Below, in pieces: positions 8,117 through 25,979 of a stretch of DNA of 32,386 nucleotides. The first letter of the stretch is position 1; the number at the start of each line of letters is the position of its first letter. The notes under the pieces are model-generated. The model saw nothing but the letters and a program-made list of their open reading frames with translations, did no database searches and was not told where the DNA came from. Origin of the DNA: Methylovulum sp. (lineage in GTDB: Bacteria > Pseudomonadota > Gammaproteobacteria > Methylococcales > Methylomonadaceae); contig JACXTQ010000202.1 of NCBI GenBank assembly GCA_016919605.1, positions 1 through 32,386 on the forward strand, given 5' to 3'. A program made the position numbers and the translations under genes.

Positions 8117-9418
8117 TTAAAACCCTTTCGGCAAGCCGCCTAAATAGCCGCGCAGGAAGGCTTCTGATAATTTCAAATCTTCACCGCTTGCCGATACGGG
8201 CTTGTCTTTTAAATCTATCCGTTTGAAACGGGTGTGGCCTTGTTTGTTACGCGACACCACCAATAAGCGTTGTTCTTCATCACCCAAATCAATGCCGTCC
8301 AAAATCGCGGGGTTGTGGGTGGTGACAAACACCTGCTTATCGTATTTTTTCGCCAACCGTACCAATTCTTTAATCAGTTTGGTACACAGCTTGGGGTTAA
8401 GCGCGACATCAATATTATCAATTGCGAAAATTTTCGGAGTATCGTCCGACACCATCAGGGCAATATAAAACAGCACAAATAAAAAGCCTTCATTAGCACT
8501 GCGTTGGTCAAAATCGGTGCTTAAATAACGGTCGGTGATGGTGACTTTATCTTCGTGGGATGATAAGCCTTGCGGTATGTCGAGCCTGTCATACCAATCA
8601 AAAAGCTGTAAGGACGTGTGGATTTCTTCGCGCTGTTCGGGTGATTTGCTTTGGATGACTTTTAACAGTTTCAGCAAGCCTTCACCATTAATGCCTAATG
8701 GCTCAATTTGGCCTTCTTTTGTGAAGTTTCTTAGGGCGGTATTTTCAGGGGAATAGATTAGGAAGTTTTTTAGTTGGTCTTGTTTGCTTTCTGTGGAAAC
8801 ACTGTGTTCAAGATATTTTTTGGCATCATCTTCGTTTATATCCAATAATTTTGCAGTCTCAGCTAATATTTTTTTTTTTAAATCATCAAGTGAGTTTTGA
8901 CTACGTAACAGTAAGGATCTCAAAAAGAATTTATCTTTATCTTTATCTTTATCTTTATCCTCAATTTCAGCTTTTGAAACATCATCTTCAAGATTTTGAA
9001 TATCCTGTTCAAATTTTTGAAGTTCACTTGATAACATTGTTTTAATTTCCCAGTCAGAAATTAACTCAGATTCTTGCCATTCCCATTTGGAATAAGGCTG
9101 GTTATCATTTGCTAAAGTATATTTTTCTAATATATCTGGTTTTTGAAAATTTACATCAATTCGTATAGGTTTATTCGATTTTTCCTCTGCATCAGCAAAT
9201 GCCGACCGCATTAATTGCGGCTCAGTTACCCGTATCCCTCTGGATGCCAAAAACTCATTATCCAGTTTATCAGCCGCTGCCGCCCCCGCTAAAGCAATCG
9301 CTTCCAATACATTACTTTTCCCGCAACCGTTTTCGCCGATAAGCACATTAAAACGTCCGACTTCCAACGTCAGGTCAAACAGGGATTTGTAATTGTTGAT
9401 ATGCAGTTGACGGATCAT
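8117..9418 (-). CDS. ABC-type ATPase (AAA_15/AAA_21-like)
   Basis: I.NYKSL, Walker A GENGCGKS, helical insert, signature-position SANEG, Walker B FAIDNID, H-loop VTTHNP. Confidence 0.9.
   Translation of the reverse strand: MIRQLHINNYKSLFDLTLEVGRFNVLIGENGCGKSNVLEAIALAGAAAADKLDNEFLASRGIRVTEPQLMRSAFADAEEKSNKPIRIDVNFQKPDILEKYTLANDNQPYSKWEWQESELISDWEIKTMLSSELQKFEQDIQNLEDDVSKAEIEDKDKDKDKDKFFLRSLLLRSQNSLDDLKKKILAETAKLLDINEDDAKKYLEHSVSTESKQDQLKNFLIYSPENTALRNFTKEGQIEPLGINGEGLLKLLKVIQSKSPEQREEIHTSLQLFDWYDRLDIPQGLSSHEDKVTITDRYLSTDFDQRSANEGFLFVLFYIALMVSDDTPKIFAIDNIDVALNPKLCTKLIKELVRLAKKYDKQVFVTTHNPAILDGIDLGDEEQRLLVVSRNKQGHTRFKRIDLKDKPVSASGEDLKLSEAFLRGYLGGLPKGF
8869..8879 (-). repeat. A11 homopolymer inside the ATPase CDS
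   Basis: 11 consecutive T on the plus strand; the coding strand reads TTA AAA AAA AAA ATA (LKKKI). Confidence 0.9.
8930..8959 (-). repeat. Hexanucleotide tandem repeat (GATAAA)x5 encoding (DK)5
   Basis: Five perfect TTTATC units on the plus strand. Confidence 0.95.
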
Positions 9419-16442: not shown

Positions 16443-16745
16443 TTATTGGTCGCTATCGCGCGGTACTAAGTCAATATCATTAATCTTGTCTTGGCCTATC
16501 GTCTTGCTATACATGTAGTAGCCTGGGGCGTTGACGATCATTGCTTCGCTGGTATCAGAAATTTCCAAGCTATACGCACCCATGGCATTGGTGGAAGTGC
16601 TTTCCTTGCCAACGCTCACCGTTGCCGAAGACAGCGGGTTGCCTGTGGGTTTATCCCGAACAACGCCTTTAATCTCAATGCTGGAGCAGCCCGCGATTAA
16701 AACAAGCAAGGCTGCTGTGGCAATGGATGTCAGTTTTTTATTCAT
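16443..16745 (-). CDS. Small lipoprotein with carboxypeptidase-regulatory-like (transthyretin-like) domain
   Basis: Lipobox LIAG-C, then GVVRD..TG.PL..ATV...T.TNA.G.Y.L...APGY. Confidence 0.85.
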   Translation of the reverse strand: MNKKLTSIATAALLVLIAGCSSIEIKGVVRDKPTGNPLSSATVSVGKESTSTNAMGAYSLEISDTSEAMIVNAPGYYMYSKTIGQDKINDIDLVPRDSDQ

Positions 16746-17113
16746 ATTTTTTATTCCTTTGGAGGGGCATTAGGGTTATAAGGATGTGCCTAACCAACTG
16801 AAACCAGTCTGCTATGCCTGAAAGCTCCGTTAGTTATGGCATGTATTTTAACTGCTTAATCAGGATAGAGAAAATTTATCATGGATGGTGCTGTTTTTAA
16901 AATCAGAACCCCAGCCATTTTATGAAATAATGTATAATTGTTGGCCAATATTGCGTTAACGTAATTTTAGCCCGTTGTCAGCCACCGCTGATTGCACCAC
17001 CCAAGTTGCCAAAGGCTTATGCCGACTATTTACGGGTATGGGCTTGACCAGGAAAGTCTTGTGGTTTTACCGACAAGATCAAAGTAACATCGACAGTAAA
17101 GCCACTATCAACC

Positions 17114-17896
17114 ATGATTCAATTTCTACAGAATTTGGGTAAAACTACCCGTGCTTCGTTTACCAAATTGGGGCGGGCCACCTTCTTTTTGCTGCAAGTT
17201 TTAGCGGGTATTTTCAGCGTTTTGCTCAGGCCGCGCTTATTGCTTAACCAATTGTATTCTGTAGGGGTGTTGTCATTTTTAATCATCACCATCTCCGGTT
17301 TGTTTGTGGGCATGGTGTTGGGTTTACAGGGTTACTATATCCTCTCCGATTTTGGCGCGGAAGCGACGTTGGGTGTGATGGTTGCCGCGTCTTTGGTCCG
17401 CGAATTAGGGCCGGTGGTGTCGGCACTGCTGTTTGCAGGCCGTGCAGGTTCGGCTCTGACCGCCGAAATTGGTCTAATGAAAGCCACCGAACAGTTATCA
17501 GGTATGGAAATGATGGCGGTTGACCCGATCCGGCGTATCATTTCGCCACGCTTCTTGGCGGGCTGCTTGTCCATGCCTTTGCTGACGGCGTTGTTCAGTG
17601 CGGTTGGGATTGTCGGCGGACATTTGACCGGTTGCGGCCTGTTGGGGGTCGATGAAGGCGCCTACTGGTCGCAAATGCAGGCCAGTATTGACTTTCGCGA
17701 TGACATCATTAATGGGGTCATCAAAAGCTTTGTCTTTGGCTGGGCGACTACTTGGATTGCTCTATTTGAGGGTTACGATGCCATCCCCACCTCGGAAGGG
17801 GTCAGCCGTGCAACCACCCGTACCGTGGTCAATTCCGCATTTAGTATTTTAGGCCTTGATTTTATTCTTACCGCTCTCATGTTTGGAGACAATTAA
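17114..17896 (+). CDS. mlaE: Lipid-asymmetry ABC transporter permease
   Basis: [52 protein letters not shown]. Confidence 0.97.
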
Positions 17897-17897
17897 C

Positions 17898-18361
17898 ATG
17901 CAGCACACCAGTACTCAGGACACGCTTGTCGGGCTTTTTGTCGCGGCAGGGATTGCCGGACTGTTTTTTTTGAGTTTTCAAGCCAGTAATTTAAGCTCAT
18001 TTACCCAAAAAGACACCTATACCGTAACCGCTCGCTTTGACAATTCCGGCGGCTTAAAAATCAAGTCACCCGTATCGGCGGCGGGCGTTAAGATAGGTCA
18101 AGTCAGCAATATCAGCTTTGACCCGAAAACCTACCAATCGGTGGTGGTCATGCAAATTGAAGCACAATACAACACCTTGCCCGATGACACCACAGCCAGT
18201 GTATTTACGGCAGGGTTGTTGGGCGAGCAATATGTCAGTTTGGAGCCAGGCGGGTCGGAGACATTTTTAAAAGACCACAGCGCTATTGATATTACCCAAC
18301 CCGCCATTATTTTAGAAAAAGCGATTGGGCAATTTTTATTTAAAGCGGCGGAAGAGAAAAA

Positions 18362-18365
<4 letters not shown>
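17898..18365 (+). CDS. mlaD: MCE-domain protein MlaD
   Basis: ATG 17898 with GGAG RBS; N-terminal TM, FDNSGGLK, GV.IG.V, TAGLLGEQY. Confidence 0.96.
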
Positions 18366-19968
<1,603 letters not shown>

Positions 19969-19979
19969 AAGGTTGCCCC

Positions 19980-20609
19980 ATGCTGACGATTGCCGTATCC
20001 AAAGGCCGCATTTACGAAGAAGCTCTGCCATTTTTGGCAGAGGCTGGCATTATTCCGACCGATGACCCTTCAACCTGCCGGAAGCTGATCTTACAAACCA
20101 CCCGCCCCGATGTGCAACTGGTCATTATCCGCGCTACTGACGTGCCGACTTTTGTCGAATACGGCGCTGCGGATTTGGGCATTGCCGGTAAAGACGTGTT
20201 GCTTGAGCACGGTACGGAAGCGTTATACGAACCGCTGGATCTGAATATTGCCCGTTGCCGCCTAATGACCGCCGCGCATAAGGATGCACCGCCCATTATC
20301 GGACGAGTCCGGGTCGCCACCAAATATGTCAAAACCGCCCAACGCTACTTTGCCAGTTTGGGCATACAGGCGGACATCATCAAATTGTATGGTTCTATGG
20401 AACTCGCCCCGCTGGTGGGCTTGGCCGATTGCATCGTTGATTTGGTCGATACCGGCAACACCTTAAAAGCCAATGATTTGGAACCGCGTGAACTGATTAT
20501 GAACATTAGCTCCCGTTTAGTGGTCAACAAAGCCGCCATGAAAATGAAGCATGAAGTGATTGCGCAGTTGTTAGGGCAGTTTGAGATGACGTTGGCGAAA
20601 AGGGCGTAA
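19980..20609 (+). CDS. hisG: ATP phosphoribosyltransferase, short form (HisZ-dependent)
   Basis: [28 protein letters not shown]; 209 aa with no C-terminal regulatory domain. Confidence 0.97.
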
Positions 20610-20736
20610 ATTTGTGGGGGCGGGTGCGGATTGCTTGCCTAAAGGCTGGCTTTGGTGCGCTCTCGGTATCTTATCCGATAGGGCAAATCCGGTAAAATTA
20701 GGCGATTTACAGTGACAATTTAATCTTGATACCATC

Positions 20737-22095
20737 ATGGAAAAACTAGCCATCACTAATTTCCTGTCCATTGAGCAAGCGGAAATAGACATTAAACCGA
20801 TCAATATTTTTATCGGCCCGCAAGCACAAGGGAAAAGCGTCATTGCCAAACTGATTTATTTTTTTAAGGAATATCCGCAATCTCTTGTAGAAGCCGTTTA
20901 TCGCGGTATGACCACAAAAGAAGGCTGCGATAAATTAGCTTTAGCGAAATTTGAAAAAATTTTTCCAAAATATACTTGGGAAAAACATCAATTTACCGTC
21001 ACTTATTCAAATAAATATTATTCAGTTTCACTTTCTAATCAGCTTATTAATGATCAATTGGTTTTTGATTTGGCCAGCGATTTCATTATTCGGGACGTTT
21101 TTACCAGCTTAAAAGAAGCCAAAAGCCTCGACCCTTATTTATACGGTTTTGACAATAAAGATCCACTTGCAACCCCACGTTTTTTTTCAGGTAAAAATCA
21201 ACAGATATTCTCATTATTGAGTGAAAATTTCTCTTTTTTAGAAGGCGTATTAATTGATCAGCTGTTTCGTGAAAATCAGAAGCCTTATTTAGAGAGAGTT
21301 TTTTATATTCCAGCAGGCCGTTCATTTTTTGCAAATCTAAGCAGTAATATCTTTTCTTTTATCAGCTTAGAGATAAAAATAGATCATTTATTGGCATTGT
21401 TTGGCAAAACTTATGAAAAAACTAAAGCAAACAGGAAAAAAGGCCATGGTTCTGCCGAGAAAGAACAGCAACTGCGAATAAACCACATCATCAAGCAAAT
21501 TATTTATGGTGATTTTGAGTTTGACGAGAGCGGTGATTGGATTGTCAATAACAAAGGCAAAGTTGATATTGCTGATGCGTCATCGGGGCAACAAGAAGCC
21601 TTGCCAATGGCAGTGGTTTTATCAACCGAACCCTATATCAGCCATAGCCATATTGCCCATCATTTTGTCATTGAGGAACCGGAAGCCCATCTCTTTCCAA
21701 TAGCGCAAAATCAAATTGTTTTGCTAATTGCCAATGCTTACAATTACTTAAAAAAGTATAAAAAAATTGAAAACTTCAAAATCAATGGTTTTAATTCTTT
21801 TACTATAGCAACCCATAGCCCCTATATATTGGCTGCGCTTAACAATCTCATCCAAGCGGGCAATGTTGCCGCATCAAAGTATTACGAAAATTTAGCGGAG
21901 CTTAATAAGGTTGTACCTGAATCAGAATGGGTCGATTTTAACGATGTTTCGGCTTATTTGGTCGATCAGGGAACGGTGAAATCGATTCTTAATCAAGACT
22001 TAAAACTGATTGATGCTAATATGATCGATGAAGTTTCCAACCATTTCGCGGATACTTTTGAAAAATTGATTGGTATGGAAGAAGTGGATGAATAA
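20737..22095 (+). CDS. ABC-type ATPase (AAA_15/AAA_21-like), AT-rich insert
   Basis: Walker A GPQAQGKS, YIPAGRS, signature ASSGQQE, Walker B FVIEEPEAHLFP, H-loop ATHSPY; no TM segments. Confidence 0.9.
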   Translation: MEKLAITNFLSIEQAEIDIKPINIFIGPQAQGKSVIAKLIYFFKEYPQSLVEAVYRGMTTKEGCDKLALAKFEKIFPKYTWEKHQFTVTYSNKYYSVSLSNQLINDQLVFDLASDFIIRDVFTSLKEAKSLDPYLYGFDNKDPLATPRFFSGKNQQIFSLLSENFSFLEGVLIDQLFRENQKPYLERVFYIPAGRSFFANLSSNIFSFISLEIKIDHLLALFGKTYEKTKANRKKGHGSAEKEQQLRINHIIKQIIYGDFEFDESGDWIVNNKGKVDIADASSGQQEALPMAVVLSTEPYISHSHIAHHFVIEEPEAHLFPIAQNQIVLLIANAYNYLKKYKKIENFKINGFNSFTIATHSPYILAALNNLIQAGNVAASKYYENLAELNKVVPESEWVDFNDVSAYLVDQGTVKSILNQDLKLIDANMIDEVSNHFADTFEKLIGMEEVDE

Positions 22096-22552
22096 TCCTT
22101 GTATATCCGTTGTTAAAGACAAGAATATCGTTTTTTCTGACGAGAAATCTAAATCTGAATTAAAAATCACCAACGAAAACTTGCGCGAAATTGAAAGGCA
22201 TAAGGTTGATGGTTGTTTGATTAAGGGTGAGGAATCTAAAAAGTGTGATTGGTTGGCGATTATTGTTATTCCGTTAGCTTCTGAAAAGACATTGAAAAAA
22301 GAGGTTTTTATTGAGTTAAAAGGTAAAAACGTCCCTCATGCTATTGAACAGCTTTGCGTTTCTGTAGAAAAATTATCAGCCGATAAAAAATCTAAAAAGT
22401 TAGGCTATATCATTTGTACGCGTTCACCGTTAAGCAGCACAGAAATTCAAACACAGGCCAAAAAGGTTTTGCGTAGCCATAATTTAATGCTCCGTGTAAA
22501 GTCTAATCATACTGAAACCGTAGAAAAGTTAATCGCTTCTCTAGCAGATTAA
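22088..22552 (+). CDS. Small basic protein with PD-(D/E)xK-nuclease-like motif
   Basis: ATG overlaps the ATPase stop (ATGAATAA). Motif KVDGCL...KCDW...VFIELKG....AIEQL fits D...ExK followed by a helix with Q. Confidence 0.65.
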   Translation: MNNPCISVVKDKNIVFSDEKSKSELKITNENLREIERHKVDGCLIKGEESKKCDWLAIIVIPLASEKTLKKEVFIELKGKNVPHAIEQLCVSVEKLSADKKSKKLGYIICTRSPLSSTEIQTQAKKVLRSHNLMLRVKSNHTETVEKLIASLAD

Positions 22553-22600
22553 CCCTAAGCAACCATTGCCATTAATTAAATACCGCTAATCCTTTTTATT

Positions 22601-23905
22601 ATGCCCAACCCCATGATTAAAAAACTTAACGCAGCTGACACCGACTTTCTAAAGCAATTGCAAGAACTATTGGCTTGGGACGAATCCGATGATCTGGACA
22701 TCCAGCAGCGGGTGTTGGCTATTCTGGCCGATGTCCGTGCAACTGGTGATGCGGCTGTGCTTAACTACACTAACCGCTTCGACCACCGCACGGTTACGGA
22801 TGCAAGCGAATTGGAATTGCCGAAAGCGGTACTGAAAGCAGCGTGGGAAAATTTGCCCACCGAACAAGCCCATGCCCTGCAAACGGCTGCCGAGCGTATC
22901 CGGGCTTATAGCGAACATCAAAAACTGGCCTCGTGGCAGTATGAAGAAGCCGATGGTACAGTGCTGGGGCAAAAAATAACCCCGCTGGACAGGGTAGGGC
23001 TGTATGTGCCGGGGGGTAAAGCCGCGTATCCATCATCGGTATTGATGAACGCCATCCCCGCCAAAGTCGCGGGTGTCGGTGAGCTGATTATGGTGGTGCC
23101 AACCCCGAACGGGGAAACCAATGAGTTGGTGTTGGCCGCCGCCTATATCGCGGGCGTAGACCGTGCTTTTTCTATCGGTGGGGCGCAAGCGGTCGCGGCC
23201 TTGGCTTACGGTACGGACACCATCCCTGCCGTTGCCAAAATTGTCGGCCCTGGCAATATCTACGTTGCCACCGCCAAAAAACTGGTGTTCGGTCATGTCG
23301 GTATTGATATGATCGCCGGCCCTTCGGAAATTCTGGTGATTTGTGACGGTAAAACCAACCCCGATTGGATTGCGATGGATATGTTTTCGCAAGCCGAACA
23401 TGACGAAAATGCCCAAGCGATACTGATTAGTGATGATGGCGACTTTCTTGCCGCCGTCGAGCAAAGCATCCATAAGCTGCTGCCCGATATGGAACGTGCC
23501 GACATCATCCGCGCCTCCTTAAGTACACGCGGGGCGTTGATTAAAGTTGATAGTTTGGATAGAGCGGCTGAAGTCGCCAATAGTATCGCACCGGAACATT
23601 TGGAACTGTCGGTCGCCGACCCTGATGCTTTATGTGCAAAAATACGCCATGCCGGGGCGATCTTTATGGGTCGCTATACCGCCGAAGCTCTAGGCGATTA
23701 TTGCGCCGGCCCCAACCACGTCTTGCCTACATCCAGCACTGCGCGTTTTTCTTCGCCGTTGGGGGTTTATGATTTCCAAAAACGCACCAGCCTGATTAAC
23801 TGCTCGGCAACAGGTGCAGATACTTTGGGTAAGATCGCTTCGGTATTGGCACGCGGCGAAAGCTTGACCGCCCACGCCCGTTCGGCGGAATATCGGATTA
23901 AGTAG
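22601..23905 (+). CDS. hisD: Histidinol dehydrogenase
   Basis: [51 protein letters not shown]. Alternative start at 22613. Confidence 0.98.
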
Positions 23906-24005
23906 GGTGATGGGTTTATCTTAAGTGCATGGGCCATCTTAAAGGGTTAAAGGTGTACGCGTGATGGTAGCTGTGGATACTTTGATGTTCACAAATAGTT
24001 CCTTC

Positions 24006-24980
24006 CTACGGATTCTTTGCAATCACAATCGCTCGTTTCGGTGCGGGCAACCCTTCCGCCGTCAACTGTGGGTTTTCAGGGTCGAGATAATCTTGTAACG
24101 AGTTAAAGCGCATCCAAGCGGTGCTGCGTTGTTCGGCGACGCTAGTGACCGTGATATCAACGACACGGACATCAACAAACCCGCAACGTTGCAGCCAGCT
24201 AACCAAGGTGGCGCAGCTGGGTAGAAACCAGACGTTGCGCATTTTCGCATAACGACTCGGAGGCAGCAGTGCCTCACCTAAACCGCCATCAATCACCAGC
24301 GTTTCCAAAATCAGTTCGCCGCCGGGGCGTAAGCAGCCTTTTAGCTCCAGTAAATGGTCGATGGGTGAGCGGCGGTGATAAAGTACGCCCATAGAGAAAA
24401 CGCTGTCGAACAATTGTAGGTTGGCAGGCAAATCTTCCATGCCCAGCGGCAACACATATACGGGCGCAGTGCCATGCAGTTTTTTGATAACTTGGAACTG
24501 CATCACGTTCAACAACATCGGATCAATGCCGACTACAGTTTTCGCCCCCGCTCCCAGCATTCGCCAACAATGGTAGCCATTGCCACAGCCGACATCCAGC
24601 ACTCGGCGGTAGGTGAGGGGGCTGATATGGTCTTGTAGGCGTTGCCATTTCCAATCCGAGCGCCATTCGGTGTCGATAAAAATGTCGAACAGTTGGTAAG
24701 GGCCTTTGCGCCAAGGATGCAGGGCTTGCAGATTTTGTTTTAGCGATAGTCGTTGAGCGGCAGTCAGGTCCTCGGCACAGCCTATTTCAATCACATCGGC
24801 ATTGATGCAGGTGTGGCTGTGCGGAAAATCAGGGATGGCATCAATGGCCGCTTGCCATTTGACCAAATCGCCGTGGTTGTTAGGGTCGAAAGCCTTTGCC
24901 AGTTGGCTTTGTAGGCTGGCGACCCAGGTATCGGCATCGGCGGTTAATAAGTCTTGTAATAAGGGCTGGTAGTCGATCAT
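24006..24980 (-). CDS. cmoB: tRNA U34 carboxymethyltransferase
   Basis: PWRKGPY, IDTEWRSDWKW, LDVGCGNGYH, SMGVLYHRRSP, RYAKMRNVWF. A start at 24980 (MIDYQ) gives 324 aa. Confidence 0.97.
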   Translation of the reverse strand: MIDYQPLLQDLLTADADTWVASLQSQLAKAFDPNNHGDLVKWQAAIDAIPDFPHSHTCINADVIEIGCAEDLTAAQRLSLKQNLQALHPWRKGPYQLFDIFIDTEWRSDWKWQRLQDHISPLTYRRVLDVGCGNGYHCWRMLGAGAKTVVGIDPMLLNVMQFQVIKKLHGTAPVYVLPLGMEDLPANLQLFDSVFSMGVLYHRRSPIDHLLELKGCLRPGGELILETLVIDGGLGEALLPPSRYAKMRNVWFLPSCATLVSWLQRCGFVDVRVVDITVTSVAEQRSTAWMRFNSLQDYLDPENPQLTAEGLPAPKRAIVIAKNP

Positions 24981-25178: not shown

Positions 25179-25370
25179 TTAGTGGCTATCAGTAAGCTTC
25201 AGTAGTTCGCTGGCATCTAGCCCTGTGATTTCCAATATCTCGGTGGCAGAAAAATTTTTATTGATTAATTGCCGGGCGACCATAAGAGCTTTTTTTTGTT
25301 CACCAACGGTTATGCCTTGCTCCTGACCCATAATAAAGCTGGGTAGTTTTTCTATTTCTACTTGCAGCAT
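25179..25370 (-). CDS. Putative internal in-frame small protein (RpnS-like antitoxin, 63 aa)
   Basis: CAGGAG-TTTGCA-ATG inside the Rpn CDS, in frame, just before the C-terminal helical tail. Confidence 0.6.
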   Translation of the reverse strand: MLQVEIEKLPSFIMGQEQGITVGEQKKALMVARQLINKNFSATEILEITGLDASELLKLTDSH

Positions 25371-25979
25371 TGCAAACTCCTGCTGTATGTCTATATTGAT
25401 GTTCCGGTTACTGGCCAATATTTCCAACATGCTAAGGTATTCTCTCAAGCGTTTGTTGTCATCTTGGGTCATTGCGATTAGTTTGGCGATAATGTCATGG
25501 ACGACAGTTTTGGCATCGGTATCCTTCAGGTCGCACAGCAAGGCCATGACGATGGCATCGGGGCTATCTTGGTTGATAAAGAACCGATAGTCCAAGTCGT
25601 GCATGTCAATGGCCGTATAGCGGTAGTGCAGTTGCGGCGTTTGTATGTGGTCTGGCATTGTCAAGGCTGGCTTGCCAATGTATAGCAGATACTGGAACAC
25701 CTCCTCTTTTGGGTGGCACAACCTGATGTCGGTCAAATAGCGCAACATCCTGTCCGGCATGTCCTGTTGGTTTTGATTTTGGATTTCAATATGCAGGATG
25801 GACACTTTACCGGTATTATCGCTAACCCGTGCGAGCAAATCCGCCCGTCTGTCTTCTATCCGTTGCTGCTCGGTCTCTATTAGTTCGACCGTTGCCAATT
25901 GCAAATTAAAAATATACGTCGCCACATCGACGAGGATGCGTTTAAAAACCTGCTTGGAGATAATGTCTTTTTGTCCCAT
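25179..25979 (-). CDS. Rpn/YhgA-like PD-(D/E)xK nuclease (recombination-promoting nuclease / putative transposase family)
   Basis: D...K, RRADLL, ILHIEIQ, M..RML.Y, C-terminal GQEQG...GE...VAR.L......EI.EITGL tail. Confidence 0.88.
   Translation of the reverse strand: MGQKDIISKQVFKRILVDVATYIFNLQLATVELIETEQQRIEDRRADLLARVSDNTGKVSILHIEIQNQNQQDMPDRMLRYLTDIRLCHPKEEVFQYLLYIGKPALTMPDHIQTPQLHYRYTAIDMHDLDYRFFINQDSPDAIVMALLCDLKDTDAKTVVHDIIAKLIAMTQDDNKRLREYLSMLEILASNRNINIDIQQEFAMLQVEIEKLPSFIMGQEQGITVGEQKKALMVARQLINKNFSATEILEITGLDASELLKLTDSH

What the first reader, a model, noticed from the sequence alone, without database searches (positions are those of the whole stretch)
20737..22552. ABC-ATPase + small PD-(D/E)xK-like nuclease cassette inserted between hisG and hisD: candidate undescribed defence system
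Seen: two overlapping (ATGAATAA), visibly AT-rich genes split the usually adjacent hisG-hisD. They are co-oriented with the mla-murA-his run, with no obvious terminator. The 452-aa ATPase has intact Walker A, SSGQ signature, Walker B and H-loop and no TM partner. The 154-aa partner has a D...ExK...Q pattern. Established: soluble ABC-ATPase + nuclease pairs such as Septu (PtuA + HNH PtuB) and PARIS (AriA + TOPRIM AriB) are anti-phage systems. Inference: this is an analogous sensor-effector pair with a restriction-endonuclease-fold effector that I cannot assign to a named system. Its position would allow constitutive read-through expression.
Basis: partly seen in the sequence, partly recalled or inferred. 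Interest (0 to 1): 0.8.

Follow-up and report, generated by a model that had tools for sequence, protein, structure and literature searches.

The report
WonAB phage-defence pair in swappable slot
Two genes wedged between hisG and hisD belong to the already described WonAB anti-phage family and likely halt protein synthesis in an infected cell; related species carry other defence-like gene pairs in the same slot, likely swapped by recombination.

Summary
In detail: a 452-aa OLD-type ABC ATPase (20737-22095) and an overlapping 154-aa PD-(D/E)xK-like gene (22088-22552), GC 0.35 against 0.49 for the genome, split hisG from hisD. The claim 'undescribed' fails. The pair belongs to WonAB, an anti-phage system validated in 2025 (PMC12137116). 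It is 31-42% (ATPase) and 29-35% (nuclease) identical to pairs matching that paper's WonAB list, nests among them in a tree, and keeps all five residues shown essential there. Homologues are linked in 95 of 100 loci. By homology it likely aborts infection by ATPase-dependent translation shut-off; nothing was tested for this copy. The less ordinary part is the site. Of 21 same-genus genomes, 10 have hisG-hisD adjacent and 8 carry a low-GC insert of four kinds. The closest relative carries a different ATPase pair followed by an 84-bp, 94%-identical remnant of this nuclease gene. Two species share a 96%-identical ATPase but 31%-identical nucleases, and their hisG is unusually alike. This points to a small defence hotspot without mobility genes, exchanged by homologous recombination. 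Verdict: new member of a known kind; modest interest.

The parts
19980..20609 (+). hisG, left flank of the variable slot
   Evidence: Pfam HisG E 7.5e-53; present in all 22 genus genomes
20610..20736 (+). 127-bp spacer; holds a sigma-70-like site at 20706-20735 that is not above chance
   Evidence: no stable fold, z -0.28; no Rfam match; no second copy in the assembly
20737..22095 (+). wonA-family OLD-type ABC ATPase, 452 aa (K33, R195, SSGQQ 282-286, E314, H360)
22088..22552 (+). wonB-family PD-(D/E)xK-like nuclease, 154 aa (D41, D54, E76, K78, Q88)
22469..22552 (+). 3' 84 bases of the nuclease gene, which survive as a remnant (79 of 84 identical) behind a different cassette in G017
22601..23905 (+). 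hisD, right flank of the variable slot
   Evidence: Pfam Histidinol_dh E 3.9e-166

Best explanation
The two genes are a WonAB-family pair, an OLD-type ABC ATPase and a small PD-(D/E)xK-like nuclease, that likely defends against phage by abortive infection: the ATPase would sense infection and switch on the nuclease, which would shut down translation. Shown here: family membership by sequence, conserved catalytic residues, tight linkage, low GC, and a variable hisG-hisD slot in the genus. Shown for the reference system only (PMC12137116): both genes and both active sites are needed, the nuclease is toxic only with an active ATPase, it is unstable and Lon-degraded, chromosomal DNA stays intact and translation stops. 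The rRNA or tRNA target is the authors' suggestion. Inferred here: this copy is active, is expressed largely by read-through from murA-hisG, and reached the site by homologous recombination through the flanking his genes.
For: Locus L123 is 100% identical to NC_009801.1, whose two genes are WonAB hit 2 in the paper's Table S4. The window's proteins match them at 42.0% over 457 columns (E 5e-105) and 35.3% over 136 (E 2e-20). Three more stored pairs read as Table S4 hits by eye (L097 hit 167, L129 hit 37, L130 hit 42). Against these four pairs the window scores 31-42% (ATPase) and 29-35% (nuclease), while they score 33-43% and 27-34% among themselves. In a quick ML tree of 47 ATPases the window's protein groups with L123 and P0121 (hit 116) at SH-aLRT 97, inside a clade (94) holding all five listed members. 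Residues whose loss abolished defence (K34, R182, E300, H333; WonB K71) correspond by eye to K33, R195, E314, H360 and K78. A homologue of the small gene lies directly downstream in 95 of 100 ATPase loci. The model of the small protein (pLDDT 89.8) has PD-(D/E)xK nucleases as top hits: MUS81, MspJI; Cdn1 Z 6.1, rmsd 3.4, 112 aligned; Can2 Z 5.9; FokI Z 5.9, rmsd 3.5, 115 aligned. Complex prediction gave weak support: 0.35 against best control 0.00, runs agreeing in at least 85% of contacts, partner pLDDT at least 81; the mark was reached by 116 of 157 solved complexes and 2 of 215 mismatches, but at 0.60 or under by only 18 of the 157 and by both mismatches.
Against: No experiment on this copy. 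The reference V. cholerae proteins were compared by eye only, and the authors' HMMs were not run. The Table S4 members are themselves predictions. Structural matches are weak: no Foldseek E under 0.001, best Z 6.1 with small GTPases at 5.7. The tree is the quick one, without bootstrap, with long outgroup branches. A restriction-enzyme fold more often cuts DNA, and the RNA target of WonB is unproven. The ATPase's middle differs strongly among homologues, so trigger and phage range need not match the reference. No Methylococcales hit is listed in Tables S4-S5, nor Serratia marcescens, Pseudomonas fragi or P. moraviensis, which carry close ATPase homologues (the tables cover complete RefSeq genomes of May 2024 only).
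Confidence: 0.75

Rival explanations
1. Same family, different output: the nuclease cuts invading phage or plasmid DNA directly, as a restriction-like enzyme licensed by the ATPase, rather than stopping host translation.
For: Top structural hits are DNA nucleases (MUS81, MspJI, FokI). The nuclease is only about 30-35% identical to listed WonB proteins. PD-(D/E)xK folds act on both RNA and DNA (10.1101/2025.07.10.664194).
Against: In the tested family member genomic DNA stayed intact and translation stopped. No methylase lies next to the pair in the window. Can2/Cdn1-type nucleases score as well as the DNases.
Confidence: 0.12
2. A selfish addiction-type module kept by post-segregational killing, with the ATPase as antitoxin; phage defence is incidental or absent.
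For: The slot also takes toxin-antitoxin-like pairs: a PIN-domain gene with a small upstream partner in G006 and G021. Pfam labels the ATPase AAA_21, 'putative AbiEii toxin, type IV TA'. WonB is unstable and Lon-degraded.
Against: In the reference system the ATPase is needed for toxicity, which the authors say rules out simple sequestration. The cassette was displaced in G017.
Confidence: 0.07
3. The pair is better filed as PADLOC candidate PDC-M29 or another sister branch of the wider OLD-ABC ATPase + REase class, not WonAB proper.
For: PDC-M29A (E 1e-26) and PDC-M29B (E 2.7e-5) are the best PADLOC hits.
Against: The listed WonA of L123 also hits PDC-M29A best (E 1.9e-31), so the hit does not separate the two. 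The M29 scores are low next to true PDC matches such as M38A at E 1e-140. PADLOC-DB 2.0.0 dates from 2023, before WonAB. The tree nests the protein among listed WonA.
Confidence: 0.06

Closest known systems
WonAB (Adams et al. 2025, PMC12137116)
   Same: Gene order, two-gene overlap or near-overlap, sizes (421/140 aa against 452/154 aa), OLD-type motifs, all five tested residues, 31-42% and 29-35% identity to pairs matching the paper's list.
   Different: The reference sits in a prophage behind a putative regulator gene; this copy sits alone inside a housekeeping operon, with no regulator or mobility gene. The ATPase has longer variable middle segments. No Methylococcales member is in the paper's tables. 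Untested.
'OLD-ABC ATPase + novel REase' class (Krishnan et al. 2020; seen only as cited in PMC12137116 and 10.1101/2024.01.29.577857)
   Same: The wider class; the paper says it contains all WonAB homologues, and L123's pair is also in its Table S5.
   Different: Broader; includes more distant ATPases and longer nucleases.
PDC-M29 (PADLOC candidate, Payne et al. 10.1101/2024.01.29.577857)
   Same: Best PADLOC hit for both genes.
   Different: Weak scores. The PDC set is described as computational candidates. The name occurs in 0 full texts searched; its description would be in bioRxiv supplements that could not be seen.
PD-T4-4, HEC-02, PARIS (AriAB), Septu
   Same: ABC-ATPase plus nuclease layout; ATPase hits AriA E 3e-19, PD-T4-4_A E 2.5e-11, HEC-02A E 5e-8, PtuA E 2.5e-6.
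   Different: The small protein hits none of their partner models at E 0.1. PMC12137116 treats PARIS and Septu as distinct and PD-T4-4 as similar but variant.
Core defence hotspots of Pseudomonas aeruginosa (PMC10250203, passages)
   Same: Variable low-GC defence cargo between conserved core genes; transfer by flank recombination is raised there as a possibility.
   Different: Those are 6-26 kb in median, next to tRNA or tmRNA and filled by mobile elements. This slot is 1.7-2.6 kb, inside an operon, with no tRNA in the window and no mobility gene recognised in the 8 inserts.

Membership tests
WonAB | Two-gene operon, ABC ATPase then small nuclease | tested here: met
   95 of 100 homologous loci keep the order
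WonAB | OLD-type ABC motifs incl. tested K34, R182, E300, H333 | tested here: met
   K33, R195, E314, H360; identical in four listed-type pairs; reference numbering counted by hand on the sequence shown
WonAB | PD-(D/E)xK-variant nuclease of about 16 kDa with catalytic K71 in IELKG | tested here: met
   K78 in IELKG; D54, E76, K78, Q88 in 95 of 95; reference shown
WonAB | Full-length homology to proteins the authors list as WonA and WonB | tested here: met
   42.0% / 35.3% to hit 2; nested among five listed-type WonA
WonAB | Restriction-endonuclease fold of the small protein by structure | tested here: inconclusive
   top hits are PD-(D/E)xK nucleases, but E above 0.001 and Z about 6
WonAB | Called by the authors' HMM / MacSyFinder model | not testable with these tools
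   models not held in the libraries
WonAB | ATPase-nuclease complex | tested here: inconclusive
   weak support, 0.35 against control 0.00, 1:1 only
WonAB | Phage protection by lysis-independent abortive infection and translation shut-off | not testable with these tools
   needs bench work
PDC-M29 | Adjacent hits to PDC-M29A and PDC-M29B | tested here: inconclusive
   both hit, E 1e-26 and 2.7e-5; PADLOC's own thresholds were not available
PARIS / Septu / PD-T4-4 / HEC-02 | Partner matches AriB (TOPRIM), PtuB (HNH), PD-T4-4_B or HEC-02B (NERD) | tested here: not met
   only PDC-M29B hits the small protein at E up to 0.1 among 5027 models

The most novel reading that the evidence does not exclude
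The hisG-hisD junction of this genus, and of at least one other genus in the family, is a miniature defence hotspot inside a housekeeping operon. Promoter-poor ABC-ATPase/nuclease cassettes replace one another there, between species, by homologous recombination through the his genes and through conserved stretches of the ATPase, with no integrase or tRNA. One such event left a natural chimera: G006 and G011 have a 96%-identical ATPase, but the last 17 or so residues and the whole nuclease differ (31% identical). That would make the ATPase's last helix plus the nuclease an exchangeable effector module, separable from the sensor body.
Probability: 0.55. Interest if true: 0.5.

Novelty: new member of a known kind. 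Interest (0 to 1): 0.3.

Why it matters
The system itself is known, so this copy adds a likely methanotroph member to a family with one tested example. The site is of more use. It gives a marker for mining further defence candidates in this family (one ATPase pair and one 403-aa gene in the slot match no partner model). It also gives sequence evidence for flank-mediated recombination of defence cassettes, which PMC10250203 raised as an open possibility. The G006/G011 pair is a ready-made test of which part of a WonA protein selects its nuclease.

Tried and rejected
Pfam and NCBIfam gave the small protein no significant family (NucS_C E 0.034; an unrelated hit at E 0.024). Foldseek found no match at E up to 0.001. 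No plasmid record matched the small protein; one unannotated phage record did and two matched the ATPase. A published wonA primer matched nothing in viral contigs, so the reference proteins were never held as stored sequences. No tRNA or tmRNA in the window, no Rfam match at 16500-24200, and no terminal or target-site repeats that stand out from chance, so an IS or integrase route has no support. The spacer has no second copy in the assembly. The search of cluster representatives and the Atlas search gave no result, so the remote reach of the nuclease family is untested. Covariation of ATPase windows with the partner across 78 non-redundant pairs was mixed: the last 20 residues ranked 3rd of 55 windows (partial r 0.26), behind 217-236 (0.31) and 233-252 (0.26), and kin are not independent. 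rpoB was missing for G000, G013 and G014, and the draw left out G016-G021, so the genus tree rests on murA+hisG, which recombination may distort. Literature searches with no paper: 'PDC-M29'; hisG + hisD + hotspot + anti-phage; Methylovulum + phage + defense system. One search listed 7 papers, none on this site by title or abstract start. Three look-ups of earlier findings returned nothing.

Full report
Observation. hisG and hisD flank them. The run mlaE-mlaD-STAS-murA-hisG-ATPase-small gene-hisD is on one strand. The host is likely a Methylovulum-type methanotroph: a named record titled Methylovulum sp. carries murA, hisG and hisD with HisG 94.7% identical to the window's, and the ATPase's near homologues include Methylococcales names.

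Identity of the genes. The ATPase is AAA_15/AAA_21. In PADLOC both genes hit PDC-M29 best, weakly. A literature search for the neighbouring system PD-T4-4 led to WonAB (PMC12137116; I read passages, sections 7 and 9, and searched supplementary file 12). WonA is an OLD-type ABC ATPase and WonB a PD-(D/E)xK variant. The paper's Table S4 lists 198 WonAB hits with sequences. Locus L123 from my own search is 100% identical to NC_009801.1, whose two genes are hit 2. The window's proteins match them at 42.0% (E 5e-105) and 35.3% (E 2e-20). P0121 reads as hit 116 over the 400 residues shown, L097's partner reads as the WonB of hit 167, and L129 and L130 read as hits 37 and 42 over the segments I printed; these four were compared by eye. 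Identities of the window's proteins to four listed-type pairs fall in the range those pairs show among themselves. A quick ML tree of 47 ATPases (43 stored family members, P0121 and 3 outgroups; the careful search did not finish) places the window's protein with L123 and P0121 (SH-aLRT 97), inside a clade (94) that also holds L097, L129 and L130. Counting by hand on the reference sequences shown, K34, R182, E300, H333 and WonB K71 correspond to K33, R195, E314, H360 and K78.

Linkage and active site. I examined 101 loci: the best 80 of 545 from genome contigs and the first 21 of 45 from viral contigs (24 weak partial matches left out). One had no full ATPase ORF. Of the other 100, 95 have a homologue of the small gene directly downstream; of the five misses, two have under 500 bases of room. 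The family spans Proteobacteria, Cyanobacteria and other phyla. D54, E76, L77, K78 and Q88 are in 95 of 95 partners and D41 in 94. The predicted structure is confident (pLDDT 89.8). Its best matches are PD-(D/E)xK nucleases, but only at Z about 6 and E above 0.001, so structure alone would not prove the fold. Complex prediction gave weak support (0.35 against 0.00; counts under Best explanation).

Mechanism. For the reference system the paper shows that both genes and both active sites are needed, that WonB is toxic on overproduction only with an active WonA, that DNA stays intact, that translation stops and that WonB is Lon-degraded; it suggests an rRNA or tRNA target. The trigger is unknown (PMC12409358, passages). 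I transfer this to the window's copy by homology. Expression by read-through is an inference. It is helped by G011 and G013, where the same ATPase starts about 25 bases after the hisG stop. The window's own 127-bp spacer may add a promoter, though the site is not above chance.

The slot. Among 21 same-genus genomes, hisG and hisD are adjacent in 10, separated by a 1.7-2.6 kb insert of GC 0.34-0.40 in 8, no longer neighbours in 2 (G007, G009), and cut by a contig end in 1. The 8 inserts: WonAB-type in G006, G011 and G013; PDC-M38 (ATPase + DUF3226) in G015 and G020; a 375-aa ATPase with an unassigned partner in G017 and G019; a PIN pair plus an unassigned 403-aa gene in G021. G006 has the PIN pair in front of its WonAB. 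The same cassette types recur on distant branches of a murA+hisG tree. In a sample of 150 family genomes (7 of them same-genus), 36 outside the genus gave two matches to a hisG-hisD query (42 match rows were not listed). I fetched 18 of the 36. Three genomes of genus g30 carry an ATPase with a PDC-M38B partner there, two carry other inserts (G119, G123), three have short spacers, five were false splits, and five have no hisD in the stretch fetched. So the slot is patchy, and most of the family is empty.

Replacement and recombination. G017 is the closest relative (murA/hisG 94-98%). It shares the first bases after the hisG stop, then carries the other ATPase pair, then rejoins the window's sequence inside the nuclease gene: the last 84 bases are 79 of 84 identical and the match runs on into hisD at 95%. 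The simplest reading is that G017's ancestor had this cassette and another replaced it. G006 and G011 are 83.4% identical in rpoB and 85.1% in murA, but 91.0% in hisG; that hisG excess (+7.6 points) is the largest of 55 pairs (mean -0.9, sd 1.85; pairs not independent). Their ATPase genes are 97-100% identical over the first 1,080 or so bases, 83-93% over the next 240, and then diverge: the last 17 or so residues differ and the nucleases are 31% identical. G006-G021 and G021-G011 show the same step up in identity near the murA end and hisG. No tRNA, repeat or mobility gene was found. Homologous recombination through the flanks and inside the ATPase fits best; it is an inference from a few MAG-quality genomes. 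The paper predicts that WonB binds WonA's C-terminal extensions, which fits the tail travelling with the nuclease, but my wider covariation test was mixed.

Comparison and novelty. Works like: WonAB. Member of: WonAB by every sequence feature tested; the authors' HMM call and the phenotype could not be tested. Hotspots between core genes are known (PMC10250203, passages), so the slot is a new small instance of a known kind. My searches found no paper on this site, but subscription journals and bioRxiv supplements, including the PDC tables of 10.1101/2024.01.29.577857 (parts 1-3 of 5 read), were not visible. Of 10.1101/2025.07.10.664194 I read part 1 of 6. Krishnan et al. 2020 I saw only as cited.

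Verdict. A real feature, a new member of a known and validated family, in a mildly interesting variable slot. Interest 0.3.

Noticed in passing
window 7420-9418 (-): A second low-GC ABC-ATPase pair (433 aa + 230 aa) downstream of the ilvD/edd-family gene; best PADLOC hits PDC-M31A (E 5e-80) and PDC-M31B (E 2.5e-8).
   Followed up: partly
window 25179-25979 (-): A 266-aa gene with a weak PDDEXK_2 hit (E 0.002) between mlaC and a methyltransferase gene; a gene with the same weak hit follows hisG in G007 (L034:14687-15511).
   Followed up: no
L058, L064, L067, L085, L086, L116, L117: In 7 of 11 Methylococcales loci inspected, a WonAB-type pair sits right after a 417-aa gene that I read as glyA from its N-terminus, often before an fhs-like gene (names by eye, from recall). 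Possibly a second housekeeping slot for this family.
   Followed up: partly
L033:1441-2652 (G021): A 403-aa low-GC gene in the hisG-hisD slot with no Pfam hit and only a weak Csm2 hit (E 0.002): an unassigned defence candidate.
   Followed up: partly
L031:822-2461 (G017) and L040:893-2535 (G019): A 375-aa OLD-like ATPase with a 172-187 aa partner that hits nothing in Pfam or PADLOC; the partner begins with an acidic motif that looks TOPRIM-like by eye.
   Followed up: partly
L039:7669-11576 (G009) and L034:11197-13243 (G007): Where hisG-hisD synteny is broken, defence-like genes still follow: a two-ORF SIR2/Dsr1-like pair in G009, and a PDC-M30-like pair after the next gene in G007.
   Followed up: partly
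window 22088-22552: Three cysteines of the small protein are conserved without explanation: C5 in 93, C43 in 89 and C53 in 89 of 95 partners. The reference WonB appears by eye to keep only the third in register.
   Followed up: no
G000 assembly: The AAA_21 search gives 37 matches; about ten lie in open frames of 375-460 aa on different contigs, suggesting many scattered ATPase cassettes of this general type.
   Followed up: no
window 5665-6889 (-): Two tandem PixA inclusion-body protein genes.
   Followed up: no
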